Below are positions 1 through 32,906 of a DNA stretch of 34,137 nucleotides, in pieces; position 1 is the first letter of the stretch, and each line of letters starts with the position of its first letter. The notes under the pieces were generated by a model. The model did not search any database and had not been told where the DNA came from. It saw only the letters and a list, made by a program, of their open reading frames with translations. Made by a program: the position numbers and the translations under genes. This DNA is from Candidatus Saccharimonas sp. (lineage in GTDB: Bacteria; Patescibacteriota; Saccharimonadia; Saccharimonadales; Saccharimonadaceae): assembly GCA_039936495.1 (NCBI GenBank), contig JBDTIG010000037.1, positions 1 to 34,137 of the forward strand, written 5' to 3'.

Positions 1-868
1 CGATGATACCGATACTGAGCAGTTGGACGCCACCTAGGAATAAGATTGCCGCCATTGTCGACGAGTAGCCCGCACCGGTCGCGACGCCGAAAATTGGTCG
101 AATCAGCAGGTAAAGGATGTAGATGAAAGCGACTGACGAGACAATAGCACCGACGACGCTCGAAATCCTCAATGGGGCTGTCGTGAAGCTGGTGATGCCG
201 TCGATGGCTAGATTTACTAGCTTAGTGTAGTTCCATTTACTTTGTCCGGCCGCGCGCTCGTCACGGTCGTAGAGGATTTCCTTTTTCTTGTAGCCGATCC
301 AGCTAAACATACCCTTGGTGTAGCGCTCTGATTCACGGAATTTCTTTAACGCCTCGATGCAACGCCTATCAAGTAGACGGAAATCGCCGGTGTCGATTTG
401 AATTGGTATTGATGTCGATATTTGTAGGAGCTGATAGTACCAGCGACTAGTGTGTTTTTTCACAGCGCTCTCGCCGGCTCGGCTGCGTCTGCGCGCAAAG
501 ACATCGTCATAGCCCTGTTCCCAATATTTGATCATTTTGACGATTAACTCTGGCGGATCTTGCAGGTCGGCGTCGATTATCACCATAGCGTCACCGCGCA
601 CATAGTCGAAGCCGGCCAGCATAGCGGTCTCTTTGCCGAAGTTGCGGCTCAGGTTAATGTAGGCGACGCGTGGATCTTTGGCGGCTCTATCGCGGATAAT
701 TTCATAAGTTCGGTCCCGGCTACCGTCGTTGACAAAGAAAAACTCAAAATCATAATCAGGTACCTTAGCCGTCAGCCCATCGAGCCGACTAAATAACTGC
801 CCTAGCACCTCTTGCTCGTTATAAGCGGGGATAAGTATAGAGATAAGCTTTCGAGATGAGCTAGTCAT
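1..868 (-). CDS. GT2 polyprenol-phosphate glycosyltransferase (GtrB/YkcC-like), 3' end runs off window
   Basis: Not in ORF track. Manual translation from ATG 868: MTSSSRKLISILIPAYNEQEVL...VNDGSRD...SRNFGKE...IIDADLQDPPELI...DTGDFRLLDR...AIDGITSFTTAPLR followed by hydrophobic segments. Start overlaps the KilA-N stop (ATGACTAG). Confidence 0.93.
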   Translation of the reverse strand, partial: MTSSSRKLISILIPAYNEQEVLGQLFSRLDGLTAKVPDYDFEFFFVNDGSRDRTYEIIRDRAAKDPRVAYINLSRNFGKETAMLAGFDYVRGDAMVIIDADLQDPPELIVKMIKYWEQGYDDVFARRRSRAGESAVKKHTSRWYYQLLQISTSIPIQIDTGDFRLLDRRCIEALKKFRESERYTKGMFSWIGYKKKEILYDRDERAAGQSKWNYTKLVNLAIDGITSFTTAPLRISSVVGAIVSSVAFIYILYLLIRPIFGVATGAGYSSTMAAILFLGGVQLLSIGII

Positions 869-1706
869 ATTTTTCTCCTAAGTATTTTTTGTCATCTGGA
901 TTGCTATGCAATAGTGCGTCGTACTGTCGATTAGATTCCTTTGCAAGGATTATAATTCTTTCTGTTTGCGTCTTTTTATTCGCAATCAGATGAGAGTTTA
1001 GGCTTTCGAGGTTAGCCAGAATAATTAACTGCTCCGAAGATGCATAGTCTCGTTGGTTTCTCTGCCCTACACCAAGACTAGGGTTGTCGGTTTTCCACTT
1101 AGCAGCCGTTTGTCCGAAAACTAATCGATTTAGCATATCCGCCTCACCGGTGTAGACATATTGATGGATGGCGTCTTGGCGGAGAGACGGGATTATATAT
1201 TCTTTTATAGCATCTGTATGTAGCCGATAATTAGCACGCGATAAGAAGCGACGCGAGTCCCACTCGATAACCTTAGACTCGAGCGATTTAAGCCTTTGGT
1301 ACTCATTAATTATGAGTAATTTAAATTCGGGACTAAGCCAGGTCCCAAACTCAAAAGCGATATCTTTATGCGCAAATGTCCCACCAAATCGCCCAGTTTT
1401 AGCTACTAATCCTTTGGCAGCGGTTTGTTTCGTCCATTCTTTTACGGATATAGTGAATCTATTTAGCCCCGCAAAGTTTTTAATTACCTCGAATTCGAGG
1501 TAATTAAACTGAGGGTTGTTAAACTTTTCCCACACGCCCAAGAATTCAATTGTGTTTTTGTTGCGTAGCCAGTTTTCTACTACACGGTCTGCGCCGTAAC
1601 TTTTAGCCATATCTGTCAAACAAATGTAATCTTCATTCTCAATTTTAGTGATTTTTACCTCATAATCGTTTATGTCCATAGTGAGGTTGCTCGGGATTGG
1701 GGTCAT
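861..1706 (-). CDS. KilA-N domain DNA-binding protein
   Basis: DYICLTDMAK...NWLRNKNTIEFLGVWE...GRFGGTFAHKDIAFEFGTWLSPEFKL...NYRLHTDAIK is typical of this KilA-N family. Confidence 0.88.
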   Translation of the reverse strand: MTPIPSNLTMDINDYEVKITKIENEDYICLTDMAKSYGADRVVENWLRNKNTIEFLGVWEKFNNPQFNYLEFEVIKNFAGLNRFTISVKEWTKQTAAKGLVAKTGRFGGTFAHKDIAFEFGTWLSPEFKLLIINEYQRLKSLESKVIEWDSRRFLSRANYRLHTDAIKEYIIPSLRQDAIHQYVYTGEADMLNRLVFGQTAAKWKTDNPSLGVGQRNQRDYASSEQLIILANLESLNSHLIANKKTQTERIIILAKESNRQYDALLHSNPDDKKYLGEKYD

Positions 1707-1744: not shown

Positions 1745-1802
1745 GCTTACTTCATGCCGAGTCATCTGGGAAAACCAGAGAAGTTATTTATATAGTAGAG
1801 CG

Positions 1803-2241
1803 CCAACCTCACGGAGTTTAGGGGTCGTGCAGTCATTGGGTGCGCTAACCCCACAGAATATCGAGGTGGCTTCGCGGACGCGGTGAGTATCCGCTCTAAA
1901 TAAACAGGCATCTTGCGTAACTCGAGGGCCAAGTCCCTCTCAGACATACTCAGATGGCCTTGTTTATTTATATCGTCCACTCCCGGCCCCTGCAGATACC
2001 TCGAGGTCCCGTGGGCCAGCGCCCCAGGCTCATGTAGCCAATATTGCCTCGTGAATTCTGTAGCTCGGGGGTCCGGGGTATCTGCAGGGGCCGAAGGGTA
2101 GGTGCTAAAAGAAACAAGGCCATCCGAGTATGTTTGAGGGCTTTAGCCCGAGTTACGCAGGATGCCAGTTTATTTGCAGCATCTACCCTTCGCGACACGA
2201 AGCCACCCCGGAGTTTTTCGTTCTTTTGACTGCAAAAGAAC
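1803..2241 (+). ncRNA. Candidate large structured ncRNA or foldback element of unknown family
   Basis: Nested inverted repeats: 1865-1874/2198-2207 (10/10), 1898-1924/2149-2175 (25/27), 1939-1965/2112-2138 (25/27), 1984-2000/2077-2093 (17/17). TATAGT at 1791-1796 and T-tract at 2214-2227. The structure is certain; RNA identity and strand are inferred. Confidence 0.5.
2220..2241. terminator. Perfect 9-bp hairpin just downstream of sucD
   Basis: GTTCTTTTG-actg-CAAAAGAAC. No clear U-tail in the sucD direction, so terminator function is uncertain. Confidence 0.35.
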
Positions 2242-2257: not shown

Positions 2258-3118
2258 TTATCTGATTTTTGCTATCAACTCAGTGATGCTATCCGCCGTA
2301 ATCGCGCCAGATTTGGCCAGATATTTCGTCTTAGCCCTAGCCGACTCCATCTCATTTGTCCCAAGTATCGCCCCAGCATGCCCCATCTGCACACCAGCCG
2401 GTGCCGAGTGTCCTGCCACATAAGCATAAACCGACTTTTTTATCTCATGCTTGATATAATCTGCCGTATTTATCTCATCGGTTCCACCGATTTCACCGAT
2501 CATGACGATGCGCTTTACCTCTGGGTCAGACTCAAATAATTCCAAACAATCAACGAAGTTGCTACCTCGAATCATATCGCCCCCGATACCGATGACATAC
2601 TTCTGCCCCAAACCACGCTTGGTCAGTAAATCCATCGCTTCATAGGTCAAGGTGCCACTTCGGCTGACGATGGCCGTATCACCAGCCAGCGCCAGGTGGG
2701 CTGGGATGATGCCGAGCAGTTGTTTGCCCGGTATTAGCACTCCAGGGCAATTAGGCCCGATTAGCGTACTCTGGCTCGATTTCAGTCGCTGATTTACCGC
2801 TAGCATGTCGTGAACTGGGATATGTTCGGTGATGCAGACGATTAACGACACTTTTGCTTCGATTGCTTCAAATATCGCGCCGCGCGCATGTGGCGCTGGC
2901 ACGAAAATGACCGATATATCGACGGTGTGGTCGGCTTGGATGTCCCGGATCGATTTATAGACTGGTACGCCATAGACTTTGCTGCCAGATTTGGTCGGAG
3001 AAGTTCCCGCCACTATCTGTGTGCCATAATCGAGCATATTTCGAGTGTGGAATTGGCCGTTTTTACCGGTTATACCCTGAACGATGACATTCTTGGCGGT
3101 AAAGAGTGATTTATCCAT
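2258..3118 (-). CDS. sucD: Succinyl-CoA synthetase alpha subunit
   Basis: VIVQGITGK, CITEHIPVHDM, IGPNCPG, SRSGTLTYE, GIGGD, IGEIGG and the phospho-His motif MGHAGA. Confidence 0.96.
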   Translation of the reverse strand: MDKSLFTAKNVIVQGITGKNGQFHTRNMLDYGTQIVAGTSPTKSGSKVYGVPVYKSIRDIQADHTVDISVIFVPAPHARGAIFEAIEAKVSLIVCITEHIPVHDMLAVNQRLKSSQSTLIGPNCPGVLIPGKQLLGIIPAHLALAGDTAIVSRSGTLTYEAMDLLTKRGLGQKYVIGIGGDMIRGSNFVDCLELFESDPEVKRIVMIGEIGGTDEINTADYIKHEIKKSVYAYVAGHSAPAGVQMGHAGAILGTNEMESARAKTKYLAKSGAITADSITELIAKIR

Positions 3119-4169
3119 GATTCACCCCATCGATACAAGCTGTTAGGTCAGGGTAGAGCGTCAGCCCTTCGTCCTGTAGCAGTTCAGCTGCTTCAGCGCG
3201 CCGATTACCACTCAGGCGGATGTAGAGCGGCGGTAGGCTAGGGAACTCGGCTTTGGCGGCGATGATAGCCTCAGCCACATCGTCGCAGCGGACGATTCCA
3301 CCAAATATATTGATAATTATGACAGATATCTTTGGAAATTCGAGTATTTTATGAAAACTTGCCACGATACTCTCAACCGAAGCTCCACCCCCGATATCGA
3401 GGAAGTTGGCCGGTTTCAGTCCGGCAGCTTTGACGGCATCGACTGTCGCCATAGCCAGACCGGCGCCGTTCGCAATAGTGGCAACTGTGCCGGTAGCGTC
3501 GAGCGCCACGAAATTCGAGTTTTCTGGGAGGGATTCAAATTTCCACTCTGGATGGCGAAATCCCGCATCAGCGTCGAGCGTCATCTTGCAGTCACCGGCC
3601 ACTAATTTGCCGTTTCGAGTATAAATTAGCGGGTTTATCTCGAGCAAAGTCGCGTCTGAGGCCACCACGCAGTCATGTAGGCGCTTGACCAGCTCTTGCA
3701 GTACAAAGGTTTGCTGGGGTAAATCATAGTACTCCGCCAGCGATTCGCCGATTTCGTCGGCTTGTCTGGTAATTAGCTCTTTGCGCCAGAAATCAGCGCT
3801 ATCATGCGATTCTACCTCGATACCGCCCTCGCGGTGGGCGATTAGCTCGATAGTGCTAGCCTCGCGGTTGATGACGACCGCCAGGTAGTATTCGTTGGCG
3901 ATATCGAGGACTTCCTCAGTCAGCAGCGACTGCGGCAATTCGCCTTTTATCTCGAGAGAATATAACTTTTTTATCTCATGACTGATATCTTTTTGGTCAT
4001 TTACGACCCGGATTCCTCCAGCTTTACCGCGTCCGCCCGTATGGACTTGAGACTTTAATACGATTGGCGCCGTCGGCAGAGCATCGTCGAGCCGAAACAC
4101 CTCGCCACGAGGTGTCGGTATGTCGAACCGTCGCAAGATAGCCTTGGCTTCGTACTCGAGTAGATTCAT
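3111..4169 (-). CDS. sucC: Succinyl-CoA synthetase beta subunit (compact, 352 aa)
   Basis: MNLLEYEAK, KSQVHTGGRGKAGG, EINPL, NGAGLAMAT, PANFLDIGGGA, NIFGGIVRCD; overlaps the sucD start. Confidence 0.95.
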   Translation of the reverse strand: MNLLEYEAKAILRRFDIPTPRGEVFRLDDALPTAPIVLKSQVHTGGRGKAGGIRVVNDQKDISHEIKKLYSLEIKGELPQSLLTEEVLDIANEYYLAVVINREASTIELIAHREGGIEVESHDSADFWRKELITRQADEIGESLAEYYDLPQQTFVLQELVKRLHDCVVASDATLLEINPLIYTRNGKLVAGDCKMTLDADAGFRHPEWKFESLPENSNFVALDATGTVATIANGAGLAMATVDAVKAAGLKPANFLDIGGGASVESIVASFHKILEFPKISVIIINIFGGIVRCDDVAEAIIAAKAEFPSLPPLYIRLSGNRRAEAAELLQDEGLTLYPDLTACIDGVNHG

Positions 4170-4181
4170 AGCTCTATTCTA

Positions 4182-4781
4182 CTATATGTTTGGCGAGGTG
4201 ATGGATGACATCATTGAGAGTAGCAAAGTGCAATCGCCTTTAAAAGCCTGAATAGAGGCAGTGATGTTACTAGCAGGGTCAATATTAGACCAATCAACGA
4301 ACCATCCAGAATTTTCAGCGACTAGCCCGAGGAAGGTACGAATTAGTCGTCCATTGCCCTCTCTGAAAGGATGGATGGCATTCAACTCGGAGTGATAATG
4401 GGTAATTGCGCTTACAAAAACATCCTTCTCTCGTGATTGCAGTTTTGTGTCGGCAGTGAGTTCGCTAAATAGAGTATCGAGGGACGCGTCTATATACGCA
4501 GAGTGAGCAAAGTACGAATCTCCCTTACTGATGTCGATAGATCTGAGACTACCCGCCCATTCATAAATATTTCCGAATATTTCGCGATGAAGTTCTAAGA
4601 AGAGACCTTTAGTGAAGTCAGCCTGTTTTATATTGGCCGGCAGCTGAACAGAAGCAATGATAGCGGCTGTAATTTCAGCTTCAGCTTGTTCAAGCGAGTG
4701 AGCGTCGGCAATATCAAGTTTATTGATGAGAATACCCGTTGTCGTATCTATGTATGGGTCATTCGCGGCATCGTAAGGCAT
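4182..4781 (-). CDS. Fic-family (FicT-like) toxin / adenylyltransferase
   Basis: Canonical HPFREGNGR motif; N-terminal DPY...GILINKL and LH..IF..IY.WAG..R typical of stand-alone Fic proteins. Confidence 0.93.
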   Translation of the reverse strand: MPYDAANDPYIDTTTGILINKLDIADAHSLEQAEAEITAAIIASVQLPANIKQADFTKGLFLELHREIFGNIYEWAGSLRSIDISKGDSYFAHSAYIDASLDTLFSELTADTKLQSREKDVFVSAITHYHSELNAIHPFREGNGRLIRTFLGLVAENSGWFVDWSNIDPASNITASIQAFKGDCTLLLSMMSSITSPNI

Positions 4782-5257: not shown

Positions 5258-5365
5258 AACAGGCGTAATTGGCAGCTTATCGCCAATCCGAAATACCTTG
5301 CCACTAGGGATTGGTATGTCGAACCGTCGCAAGACAGCCTTGGCTTCGTATTCGAGTAAATTCAT
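5258..5365 (-). pseudogene. sucC: 5' fragment of a second sucC copy (~36 codons)
   Basis: MNLLEYEAKAVLRRFDIPIPSGKVFR vs MNLLEYEAKAILRRFDIPTPRGEVFR; 5313-5366 matches 4117-4170 at 51/54 nt. Confidence 0.88.
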
Positions 5366-5542
5366 ATGTCGATTATACCTTACTATAAGATCGCTCCTAA
5401 TGAGTCTTCGCCGGTTTTAGCAAGGGATGCATTCTGACGATGTATGGGCATACAAGATATTGGGCTACAGGTGTTAAATGATGAATTTTTGTGTATAATA
5501 TAAGTATTACATGCGTAAAGTCTAGTTAAGGAAAGTGGAGAG

Positions 5543-32038: not shown

Positions 32039-32739
32039 TCCTGGGTCTGGCCTCGGAAACTGAGAAATAGTATGTAATATAATTATGCCAGCTAGAAATA
32101 TTGTTAGGATAAACATCACAGAAGGCTACTTCCACGTTTACACTCGCGGGGCGTCGAAGAAGCTTATTTTTCTTGAAGATTCCGATTATCAGAGGTTTTT
32201 GAGTTTGGTCCATCGCTATCTGGGAGAATCTGACGAAGTGGACGCTCGCGGTCGGCAATACAGGAGTTTTCGCGACAGGCTAGAGCTACTGGCATTCTGC
32301 TTGATGCCGAATCATGTGCATTTACTGTTTTTCCAATACGACGAAAAGGCGATTTCAGAATTCATGCAATGTGTCATGGGCCGGTATAGTAATTATTTTA
32401 ACTTGAAATACCACCAGTCCGGACAGCTGACGGAAAGTAGGTTTAAAGCGTCGTGGATCTCAAACGATACCTACCTGATGCATATCTCGCGCTACATTCA
32501 TCTTAACCCGAGGCATTGGAGAACTTGGCGCTGGTCGAGTTTAGCGGATTATGAGAAAAGACCGACTAACGCAGGAGTTAGTCCTGGTAAAATAATCGAA
32601 TTATTTAGTAGCCGCCAGCACTACATGGAATTTGTTGCTGACTACGAGGAAAGTAAAAAGTCACTCGACGCTATCAAAAACGAATTAGCAAATTACTAGC
32701 TATACAATATAATCACACTTTCCGAGGCCAGACCCAGGA
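32039..32739. mobile_element. REP-RAYT-like unit bounded by a perfect 21-bp inverted repeat
   Basis: TCCTGGGTCTGGCCTCGGAAA at 32039-32059 and its reverse complement at 32719-32739. Confidence 0.8.
32085..32699 (+). CDS. REP-associated tyrosine transposase (RAYT; IS200-like Y1 HUH)
   Basis: YFHVYTRG...IF, AFCLMPNHVHLL (HUH), YFN.KY..SG, RYIHLNP (catalytic Tyr), WRWSS. Confidence 0.92.
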   Translation: MPARNIVRINITEGYFHVYTRGASKKLIFLEDSDYQRFLSLVHRYLGESDEVDARGRQYRSFRDRLELLAFCLMPNHVHLLFFQYDEKAISEFMQCVMGRYSNYFNLKYHQSGQLTESRFKASWISNDTYLMHISRYIHLNPRHWRTWRWSSLADYEKRPTNAGVSPGKIIELFSSRQHYMEFVADYEESKKSLDAIKNELANY

Positions 32740-32906
32740 AAGGGACAGGGTATATTCTATAAATAATATGTTGTATTTATTACATATATTTTACAGGTGT
32801 AATGTAATTATCGCTATAGATTCCTGGGTTGCTTATGCTTGTGTATTATTTTGTAGTCATGTAAAAAGGTATGAATATCAAGTTATATTCGGGAGTGTCG
32901 AAGGAC

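What the first reader, a model, noticed from the sequence alone, without database searches (positions are those of the whole stretch)
1803..2241. Unannotated ~350-nt perfect-register rod: candidate novel large structured RNA
Seen: 1861-2211 folds back on itself through four colinear stems (10/10, 25/27, 25/27 and 17/17 complementary), closing a ~55-nt apex with small hairpins (GGGC-cagc-GCCC, GGCT-catgt-AGCC). A TATAGT -10-like box (1791-1796) precedes it and a T-tract (2214-2227) follows the closing stem on the + strand. The neighbouring KilA-N gene has its own leaderless promoter, so this is not its leader. I do not see the hallmark motifs of tRNA, tmRNA, RNase P, SRP, hammerhead or group II domain V. 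Inference: an independent + strand ncRNA of about 420 nt, opposite in orientation to both neighbours, or a DNA foldback element.
Basis: partly seen in the sequence, partly recalled or inferred. Interest (0 to 1): 0.8.

Follow-up and report, generated by a model that had tools for sequence, protein, structure and literature searches.

The report
Back-to-back copies of dispersed hairpin repeat
The 350-base fold-back is real, but it is two oppositely oriented copies of a ~150-base hairpin repeat scattered through this small bacterium's genome and its relatives, likely a mobile DNA element related to the TwoAYGGAY repeats rather than one new large RNA.

Summary
All four stems are present as described (z about -14, equal on both strands; no Rfam match). 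The rod is two divergent copies of a ~150-nt hairpin unit around a 54-nt spacer. The unit has 7 full copies in this genome and occurs in 10 of 105 genomes of the genus.

Covariation supports each unit's own hairpin, not the rod. The two arms are 73% alike, less than the right arm is to three copies elsewhere. Arbitrary pairs of copies fold as well, and 7 of 13 doublets examined form no rod. The 'terminator' T-tract is a repeat tail that also follows single units.

The family is modular, patchy at orthologous sites and recently duplicated. It reaches Proteobacteria and shares its tail with a TwoAYGGAY element. Of 121 metagenomic homologues of the tip, 78 end in a GNA triloop, the DNA mini-hairpin signature, though the window's own tips do not.

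Best reading: a non-autonomous, REPIN/BIME-like repeat folding as single-stranded DNA. No mobilising enzyme is linked and no RNA data exist. New variant of a known kind.

The parts
1797..1855 (-). Left end-cap: two degenerate tandem copies of a small hairpin module also found at the 3' end of the C40, C58 and C32 copies
   Evidence: alignment; hairpin 1820-1852
1856..2011 (-). Left unit: ~150-nt imperfect hairpin (G-run base, conserved internal loops, tip motif at 1912-1952), pointing outward
   Evidence: CM match 137 bits (a training sequence); alignments
2012..2065 (.).
2066..2216 (+). Right unit: second copy of the hairpin unit, tip motif at 2125-2160, pointing outward; 79-84% identical to copies on C35, C46, C58
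2214..2241 (+). Tail module: T-run plus hairpin 2220-2241; same type of tail in relatives, in Variovorax, and behind a TwoAYGGAY element
861..1706 (-). Neighbour: KilA-N domain gene with its own extended -10; not part of the element
2258..3118 (-). Neighbour: succinyl-CoA synthetase alpha subunit (sucD-like); its stop lies 16 nt from the tail, so read-through would cross the element on the minus strand
32085..32699 (+). Y1 HUH transposase-like gene flanked by its own 21-bp inverted repeats; candidate but unlinked mobiliser

Best explanation
The rod is a head-to-head doublet of a ~150-nt hairpin unit from a dispersed, modular intergenic repeat family, and it likely behaves as a non-autonomous mobile element that folds as single-stranded DNA and is copied by an enzyme encoded elsewhere. 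Shown: two inverted copies around a ~55-nt spacer, outward T-rich tail hairpins, multi-copy and patchy distribution, covariation within each unit, and swapping of modules at conserved junctions. Inferred: each unit folds when its strand is exposed, for example at the replication fork; the conserved internal loops and tip are the recognition site; the divergent doublet offers a folded unit on either strand; a HUH (Y1) nuclease is the likeliest but unproven mover. The long rod is a by-product that forms only when both units are of the same type.
For: Copies: 7 full units plus partial ones in G000, at intergenic housekeeping sites. The CM matches 10 of 105 genus genomes. The tail pattern matches 36 of 401 order genomes vs 1 control hit. 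Unit hairpin: 20 of 48 pairs change on both sides, 0 of 500 shuffles as high (7 related sequences, structure derived from them). Rod not special: arms 73% alike vs 79-84% to distant copies; 21 of 42 arbitrary pairs fold better; 7 of 13 doublets have 22% or fewer cross-centre pairs. Mobility: the pilB-trmH spacer carries different versions in 7 of 31 loci and lacks the element in the other 24; 97% over 546 bp between two unrelated loci of one genome (L075/L082); degenerate units in-frame in recJ (C67) and in a topA-like gene (L174). DNA signature: 78 of 121 distinct metagenomic tips are GNA triloops, 0 the antisense form, 1 GNRA, 0 UNCG. PMC13037366 (passages) says only GNA loops give the extra-stable mini-hairpin and that RNA versions are much weaker. 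The same doublet layout occurs in Variovorax (L309) and in viral contig L175. A Y1 homologue is in 8 of 10 CM-positive vs 8 of 95 other genomes.
Against: No mobiliser is linked. No unit lies within 1.5 kb of the 30 Y1 loci, which have their own short inverted repeats. Two carriers 97-99% complete have no Y1 gene (G038, G141). No neighbour gene recurs as a partner in 40 Saccharibacteria or 123 metagenomic loci. No target duplication or fixed end was seen. The window's own tips are not GNA, and most Saccharibacteria tips carry TNT loops. The 121 tips are not independent. The Y1 co-occurrence is confounded by kinship. The TrmH tree is poorly resolved and does not exclude inheritance with losses. 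Outward-strand bias and U-runs after hairpins also fit RNA.
Confidence: 0.62

Rival explanations
1. Each unit is a structured RNA: the doublet makes two divergent ~190-nt RNAs that end at the T-rich tails and bind a protein at the conserved internal loops, as proposed for TwoAYGGAY elements; copies spread by duplication or through an RNA step.
For: The outward strand folds better in 23 of 31 units (mean -4.0 kcal/mol, RNA parameters); mismatches on it are purine-rich (A.G 213 vs C.T 46); hairpin-plus-T-run tails resemble terminators. A TwoAYGGAY match carries the same type of tail.
Against: No conserved -10 before the units (4 of 23 vs 2.9 shuffled, p 0.31). GNRA/UNCG loops almost absent: 1 of 121 tips, 2 of 44 spacer hairpins. 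No clear G.T bias (120 vs 98 A.C), and DNA parameters give the same 23 of 31. Reverse transcriptase over cut-off in 2 of 5 carriers, none in G000, no unit beside them.
Confidence: 0.22
2. Host-made structured repeats without a dedicated enzyme: copies spread by recombination and gene conversion, and stems stay paired through template switching in quasi-palindromes.
For: No linked enzyme. Ragged ends and mosaic modules with breakpoints at shared motifs. Quasi-palindrome correction is recalled, not from a call.
Against: It does not explain insertion into empty, unrelated sites, the conserved unpaired motifs and GNA tips across lineages, or the 54-59 nt spacer in 6 of 11 Saccharibacteria doublets.
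Confidence: 0.11
3. A single ~420-nt + strand ncRNA gene whose function needs the long rod.
For: The rod is the minimum-energy fold (-206 vs -138 kcal/mol for the halves apart); a -10-like box precedes it and a T-run follows it.
Against: The rod equals arbitrary pairings of paralogues, is absent in 7 of 13 doublets, and is strand-symmetric; the T-run is a repeat module.
Confidence: 0.04

Closest known systems
Extended TwoAYGGAY elements (Rfam RF01731; PMC2864571; bioRxiv 10.64898/2026.09.22.753630)
   Same: Intergenic long-stem units with extreme copy-number variation, enriched as divergent doublets (68.4% of doublets in Pseudomonas), with a mobile-element-like spread that the preprint leaves unresolved (passages). 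An RF01731 match in Pseudoalteromonas (51.3 bits) is followed by the same type of T-rich tail hairpin.
   Different: No two AYGGAY loops and no RF01731 match here. The head is a single hairpin with a CGAG...CGCAG internal loop. The preprint's main text does not mention Saccharibacteria or Patescibacteria; its supplements were not seen.
REPINs and BIMEs with RAYT/TnpA-REP (PMC3337134, PMC3333891: search listing; PMC3733652: abstract, sections 14 and 16)
   Same: Two inverted palindromic units around a conserved, structured spacer; homo- and heterodimers; intergenic; occasional in-frame insertion in genes; non-autonomous.
   Different: Units are ~150 nt rather than 20-40 bp. There is no consistent GTAG/CGTC tag at the hairpin foot, no copies flank the Y1 gene, and T-rich tail arrays form the ends.
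TIRYT-associated TIR repeats (PMC3733652 section 16; PMC6006769 passages)
   Same: Y1 genes of these genomes are flanked by short inverted repeats; in G000 that repeat shares GGGTCTGG with the unit's base.
   Different: The unit's base does not fit GGGGWSAS, and the shared triplet agrees in only 2 of 7 genomes compared by eye.
UG27 reverse-transcriptase ncRNA arrays (same preprint, sections 9 and 10)
   Same: ~150-nt hairpins with variable stems and short motifs in asymmetric internal loops.
   Different: No array, no adjacent reverse transcriptase or accessory genes, and different motifs.

Membership tests
TwoAYGGAY (RF01731) | Two hairpins with AYGGAY loops on a basal stem; CM match | tested here: not met
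   No match in the window or in 52 related loci; 0 of 5 genomes (controls also silent); the model does hit L310
TwoAYGGAY (extended) | Multi-copy, divergent doublets, variable copy number | tested here: met
TwoAYGGAY (extended) | 3' pseudoknot and upstream 5-6-mer repeat array | not tested
   The extended model was not available; preprint supplements not seen
REP/REPIN/BIME | Inverted pair of palindromic units with conserved spacer, dispersed and intergenic | tested here: met
REP/REPIN/BIME | 20-40 bp palindrome with GTAG or CGTC at its foot | tested here: not met
   Units ~150 nt. GTAG lies 5-8 nt before the G-run in some G000 copies only and not in other genomes
REP/REPIN/BIME | Cognate RAYT gene flanked by the same repeat | tested here: not met
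   0 of 30 Y1 loci and 0 of 6 carry a unit or tail
MITE | Fixed terminal inverted repeats and target-site duplication | tested here: inconclusive
   Ends are variable tail arrays; no duplication seen in within-genome comparisons; empty sites too divergent for a base-level junction
UG27 RT ncRNA array | Tandem array beside RT plus two accessory genes | tested here: not met
Viroid-like / retrozyme RNA | Self-cleaving ribozyme within the rod | tested here: not met
   No Rfam ribozyme and no hammerhead core in the window element or beside other G000 copies; cores near an element at only 2 other loci
Non-coding RNA gene | Discrete transcript | not testable with these tools
   No RNA run listed

The most novel reading that the evidence does not exclude
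A cross-phylum superfamily of non-autonomous ssDNA hairpin elements with interchangeable heads: outward T-rich tail hairpins and divergent doublets form the chassis, the CGAG...CGCAG hairpin capped by a DNA mini-hairpin is one head and the TwoAYGGAY motif another, all moved by a trans-acting enzyme not yet tied to any of them.
Probability: 0.3. Interest if true: 0.68.

Novelty: new variant of a known kind. Interest (0 to 1): 0.4.

Why it matters
It removes a false candidate large RNA. It also places a Saccharibacteria repeat in a wide family whose nearest described member, TwoAYGGAY, is catalogued as an RNA and has an unexplained mobile-like spread. The loop-blind census of tips (GNA triloops, almost no RNA tetraloops) and the shared tail make testable the questions of whether these elements act as DNA or RNA and which enzyme moves them. 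Genomes under 1 Mb with few candidate enzymes are a convenient place to look.

Tried and rejected
Rfam on the window and 52 related loci: nothing at gathering score.

blastn of the element against plasmids and phages: no match. Viral-contig scans: one chance hit inside coding sequence and none. The bare G-run pattern across the genus was uninformative.

No RNA holder listed; this is no evidence on expression. Runs X3 and X4 do not cover the element.

Mobiliser candidates:
- Y2 transposase: 0 of 5 carriers.
- Rep_trans: 0 of 5 over cut-off.
- Reverse transcriptase: 2 of 5 over cut-off, unlinked.
- Small stand-alone GIY-YIG: 2 of 5, with unrelated flanks.
- No autonomous version among 20 order-level loci; L153 and L167 hold only small hypothetical ORFs between tails.

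An HDV-like ribozyme reading of the TCCTCG string was dropped by eye, because its flanks are the hairpin's own arms. The 91-aa minus-strand ORF 1968-2243 has no Pfam match.

In the tail census I dropped 29 of 46 matching genomes (single or non-array hits, mostly one identical string) before counting 12 of 17 vs 4 of 88 with Y1. Doublet boundaries were set by hand for units of other types.

Literature searches listed no paper describing this unit; the library lacks most subscription papers.

Full report
OBSERVATION. The four stems are present at 10/10, 25/27, 25/27 and 17/17. The region folds far better than shuffles, and equally on both strands (z -14.4 and -13.9). It lies between a KilA-N gene and sucD, both on the minus strand. 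Rfam gives nothing at gathering score. It is not an assembly fold-back: the arms differ by about a quarter of their bases, a contig of the possible source run crosses the apex without differences, and contigs from a second study hold both arms, one of them joined to sucD; no contig spans the whole stretch.

WHAT THE ROD IS MADE OF. The genome (G000, 809 kb, 89 contigs) holds matches on nine contigs. Alignment resolves a ~150-nt unit with 7 full copies (two in the window, two on C58, one each on C35, C40, C46) and partial or other-type copies on C5, C31, C32 and C79. All of these lie between genes, next to groES, rpmE/prfA, murA-like, serS and tRNA genes (gene names read from the translations). 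The window holds a left unit (1856-2011, minus strand), a 54-nt spacer, a right unit (2066-2216, plus strand) and a tail hairpin (2220-2241). Each unit is itself a hairpin: 20 of 48 pairs change on both sides among the 7 copies, and 0 of 500 shuffles reach that. The sequences are related and the structure was derived from them, so this is supportive and not a probability.

THE ROD IS A BY-PRODUCT. The two window units are 73% alike, whereas the right unit is 79-84% alike to the copies on C35, C46 and C58. Any two G000 copies placed back to back around the window's spacer fold at a median -208.8 kcal/mol, and 21 of 42 ordered pairs beat the real pair at -206.4. Of 13 natural doublets, 6 fold mainly across the centre and 7 do not (22% or fewer cross-centre pairs). 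The spacer is 54-59 nt in 6 of 11 Saccharibacteria doublets; boundaries of other-type units were set by hand. The T-tract follows single units too. The TATAGT box abuts a degenerate end-cap of the repeat and was not called a promoter. Against my reading, the rod is still the lowest-energy fold of this locus (-206 vs -138 kcal/mol for the halves apart).

DISTRIBUTION AND BEHAVIOUR. A covariance model of the unit matches 10 of 105 genus genomes. A core pattern gives 22 loci among 185,579 species genomes, all in records titled Saccharibacteria, Saccharimonadales or Patescibacteria, from which I infer the window's group. The tail pattern matches 36 of 401 order genomes against 1 control hit and often occurs as outward-facing pairs 348-570 bp apart (13 pairs picked). 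Full elements read: tails, unit, two or three small spacer hairpins, unit, tails. Units come in several types and are mosaic across species.

SIGNS OF MOVEMENT. The spacer between divergent pilB and trmH carries different versions of the element in 7 of 31 loci examined (the 30 best of 102 hits, plus G000) and lacks it in the other 24. On a TrmH tree the 10 carriers need 9 changes (shuffled mean 8.6), but well-supported branches force only 2, so inheritance with losses is not excluded. Two unrelated loci of one genome share 97% over 546 bp, and matches break at module junctions, with no target duplication seen. Degenerate units sit in frame in recJ (C67) and in a topA-like gene (L174).

BEYOND SACCHARIBACTERIA. 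The window's tip flanks, with the loop left free, match about 640 metagenomic stretches by the tool's estimate. The 123 loci read range from 34 to 65% GC in the 60 printed; 1 of 129 sites lies in an ORF of 200 aa or more, and only 2 of 121 have the tail. A related doublet with tails occurs in viral contig L175 and, as a ~750-nt near-perfect rod, in Variovorax paradoxus. In Pseudoalteromonas the same type of tail follows a true TwoAYGGAY match (51.3 bits).

DNA OR RNA. Of 121 distinct metagenomic tips, 78 are GNA triloops (GGA, GAA, GTA and GCA all common, also on extended stems), 0 the antisense form, 1 GNRA and 0 UNCG. PMC13037366 (passages) reports that only GNA loops form the extra-stable DNA mini-hairpin and that RNA counterparts are much weaker. 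Spacer hairpins show C-closed purine-N-A triloops in either orientation in 18 of 44 cases (9 strictly GNA) against 2 of 97 background hairpins. Against this: the sites are not independent, the window's tips are not GNA, most Saccharibacteria tips read TNT, and the outward strand folds better in 23 of 31 units with purine-rich mismatches, which fits RNA or DNA. No conserved -10 precedes the units (4 of 23, p 0.31).

THE MOVER. A Y1 HUH gene in the window has homologues in 16 of 105 genus genomes, including 8 of the 10 carriers. Kinship confounds this. These genes have their own short inverted repeats and no unit nearby, and two near-complete carriers lack Y1. RT, Y2, Rep_trans and stand-alone GIY-YIG are not shared by the carriers tested. 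No partner gene recurs beside 40 Saccharibacteria or 123 metagenomic loci. Mobilisation by a trans-acting HUH nuclease is therefore inferred by analogy with REPINs, not shown.

COMPARISON AND VERDICT. It works like a REPIN/BIME (PMC3733652: abstract and sections 14, 16; PMC6006769: passages; PMC3337134 and PMC3333891: search listing only) but fails the tag, size and cognate-RAYT tests. The nearest described system is the extended TwoAYGGAY element (bioRxiv 10.64898/2026.09.22.753630: abstract, passages, sections 9-10, supplements not seen; PMC2864571: passages and supplement passages), which shares divergent doublets and copy-number swings but whose defining loops are absent here. PMC2718517 and 10.1101/2023.02.02.526783 (passages) added nothing specific. 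Eight searches listed no description of this unit. Earlier AI notes describe similar elements in other Saccharibacteria; one pointed me to TwoAYGGAY, and they are leads, not support. Verdict: a real feature, not a single large RNA; a new variant of dispersed modular palindromic repeats; interest 0.4.

Noticed in passing
G000 C29:1815, C49:14147, C50:8833; L085:1844; L167:1618 and 2570: Hammerhead-like cores (CTGATGA, stem II, GAAA). The two in L167 read as type III by eye and bracket a left unit plus a 147-aa ORF; neither L167 nor L085 reached an Rfam gathering score, and the G000 sites were not scanned.
   Followed up: partly
G000 C67:3805-3948; L174:2300-2450: Degenerate units inserted in frame in recJ and in a topoisomerase I-like gene, adding a peptide without breaking the frame.
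   Followed up: partly
G000 C58:9853-9992 and C40:11730-11868: Two versions of the rpmE 3' end (79% identical), each followed by a unit: a partial duplication or a second strain in the bin.
   Followed up: no
window 32039-32060 and 32720-32740: A 21-bp inverted repeat pair flanks the Y1 gene, as in TIRYT-type elements; a direct repeat starting GTCATGTAAAAAGG lies upstream and downstream.
   Followed up: partly
window 4066-4182 and 5262-5378: 117-nt direct repeat (80%) of the sucC start region around the Fic gene, suggesting an insertion that duplicated the gene start.
   Followed up: no
G000 C5:1345-1510: Three tandem copies of a ~60-nt unit beginning CTCCTAGTGTTATAA beside a partial element.
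   Followed up: no
L141 (pilB-trmH spacer of G143): A pair of CGTC-type REP-like palindromes is nested in the centre of the element.
   Followed up: no
L316 (G013): A small GIY-YIG gene lies between two copies of a 25-nt sequence, the second running into a tRNA-like 3' end: possibly a tRNA intron or an integrated cassette.
   Followed up: no
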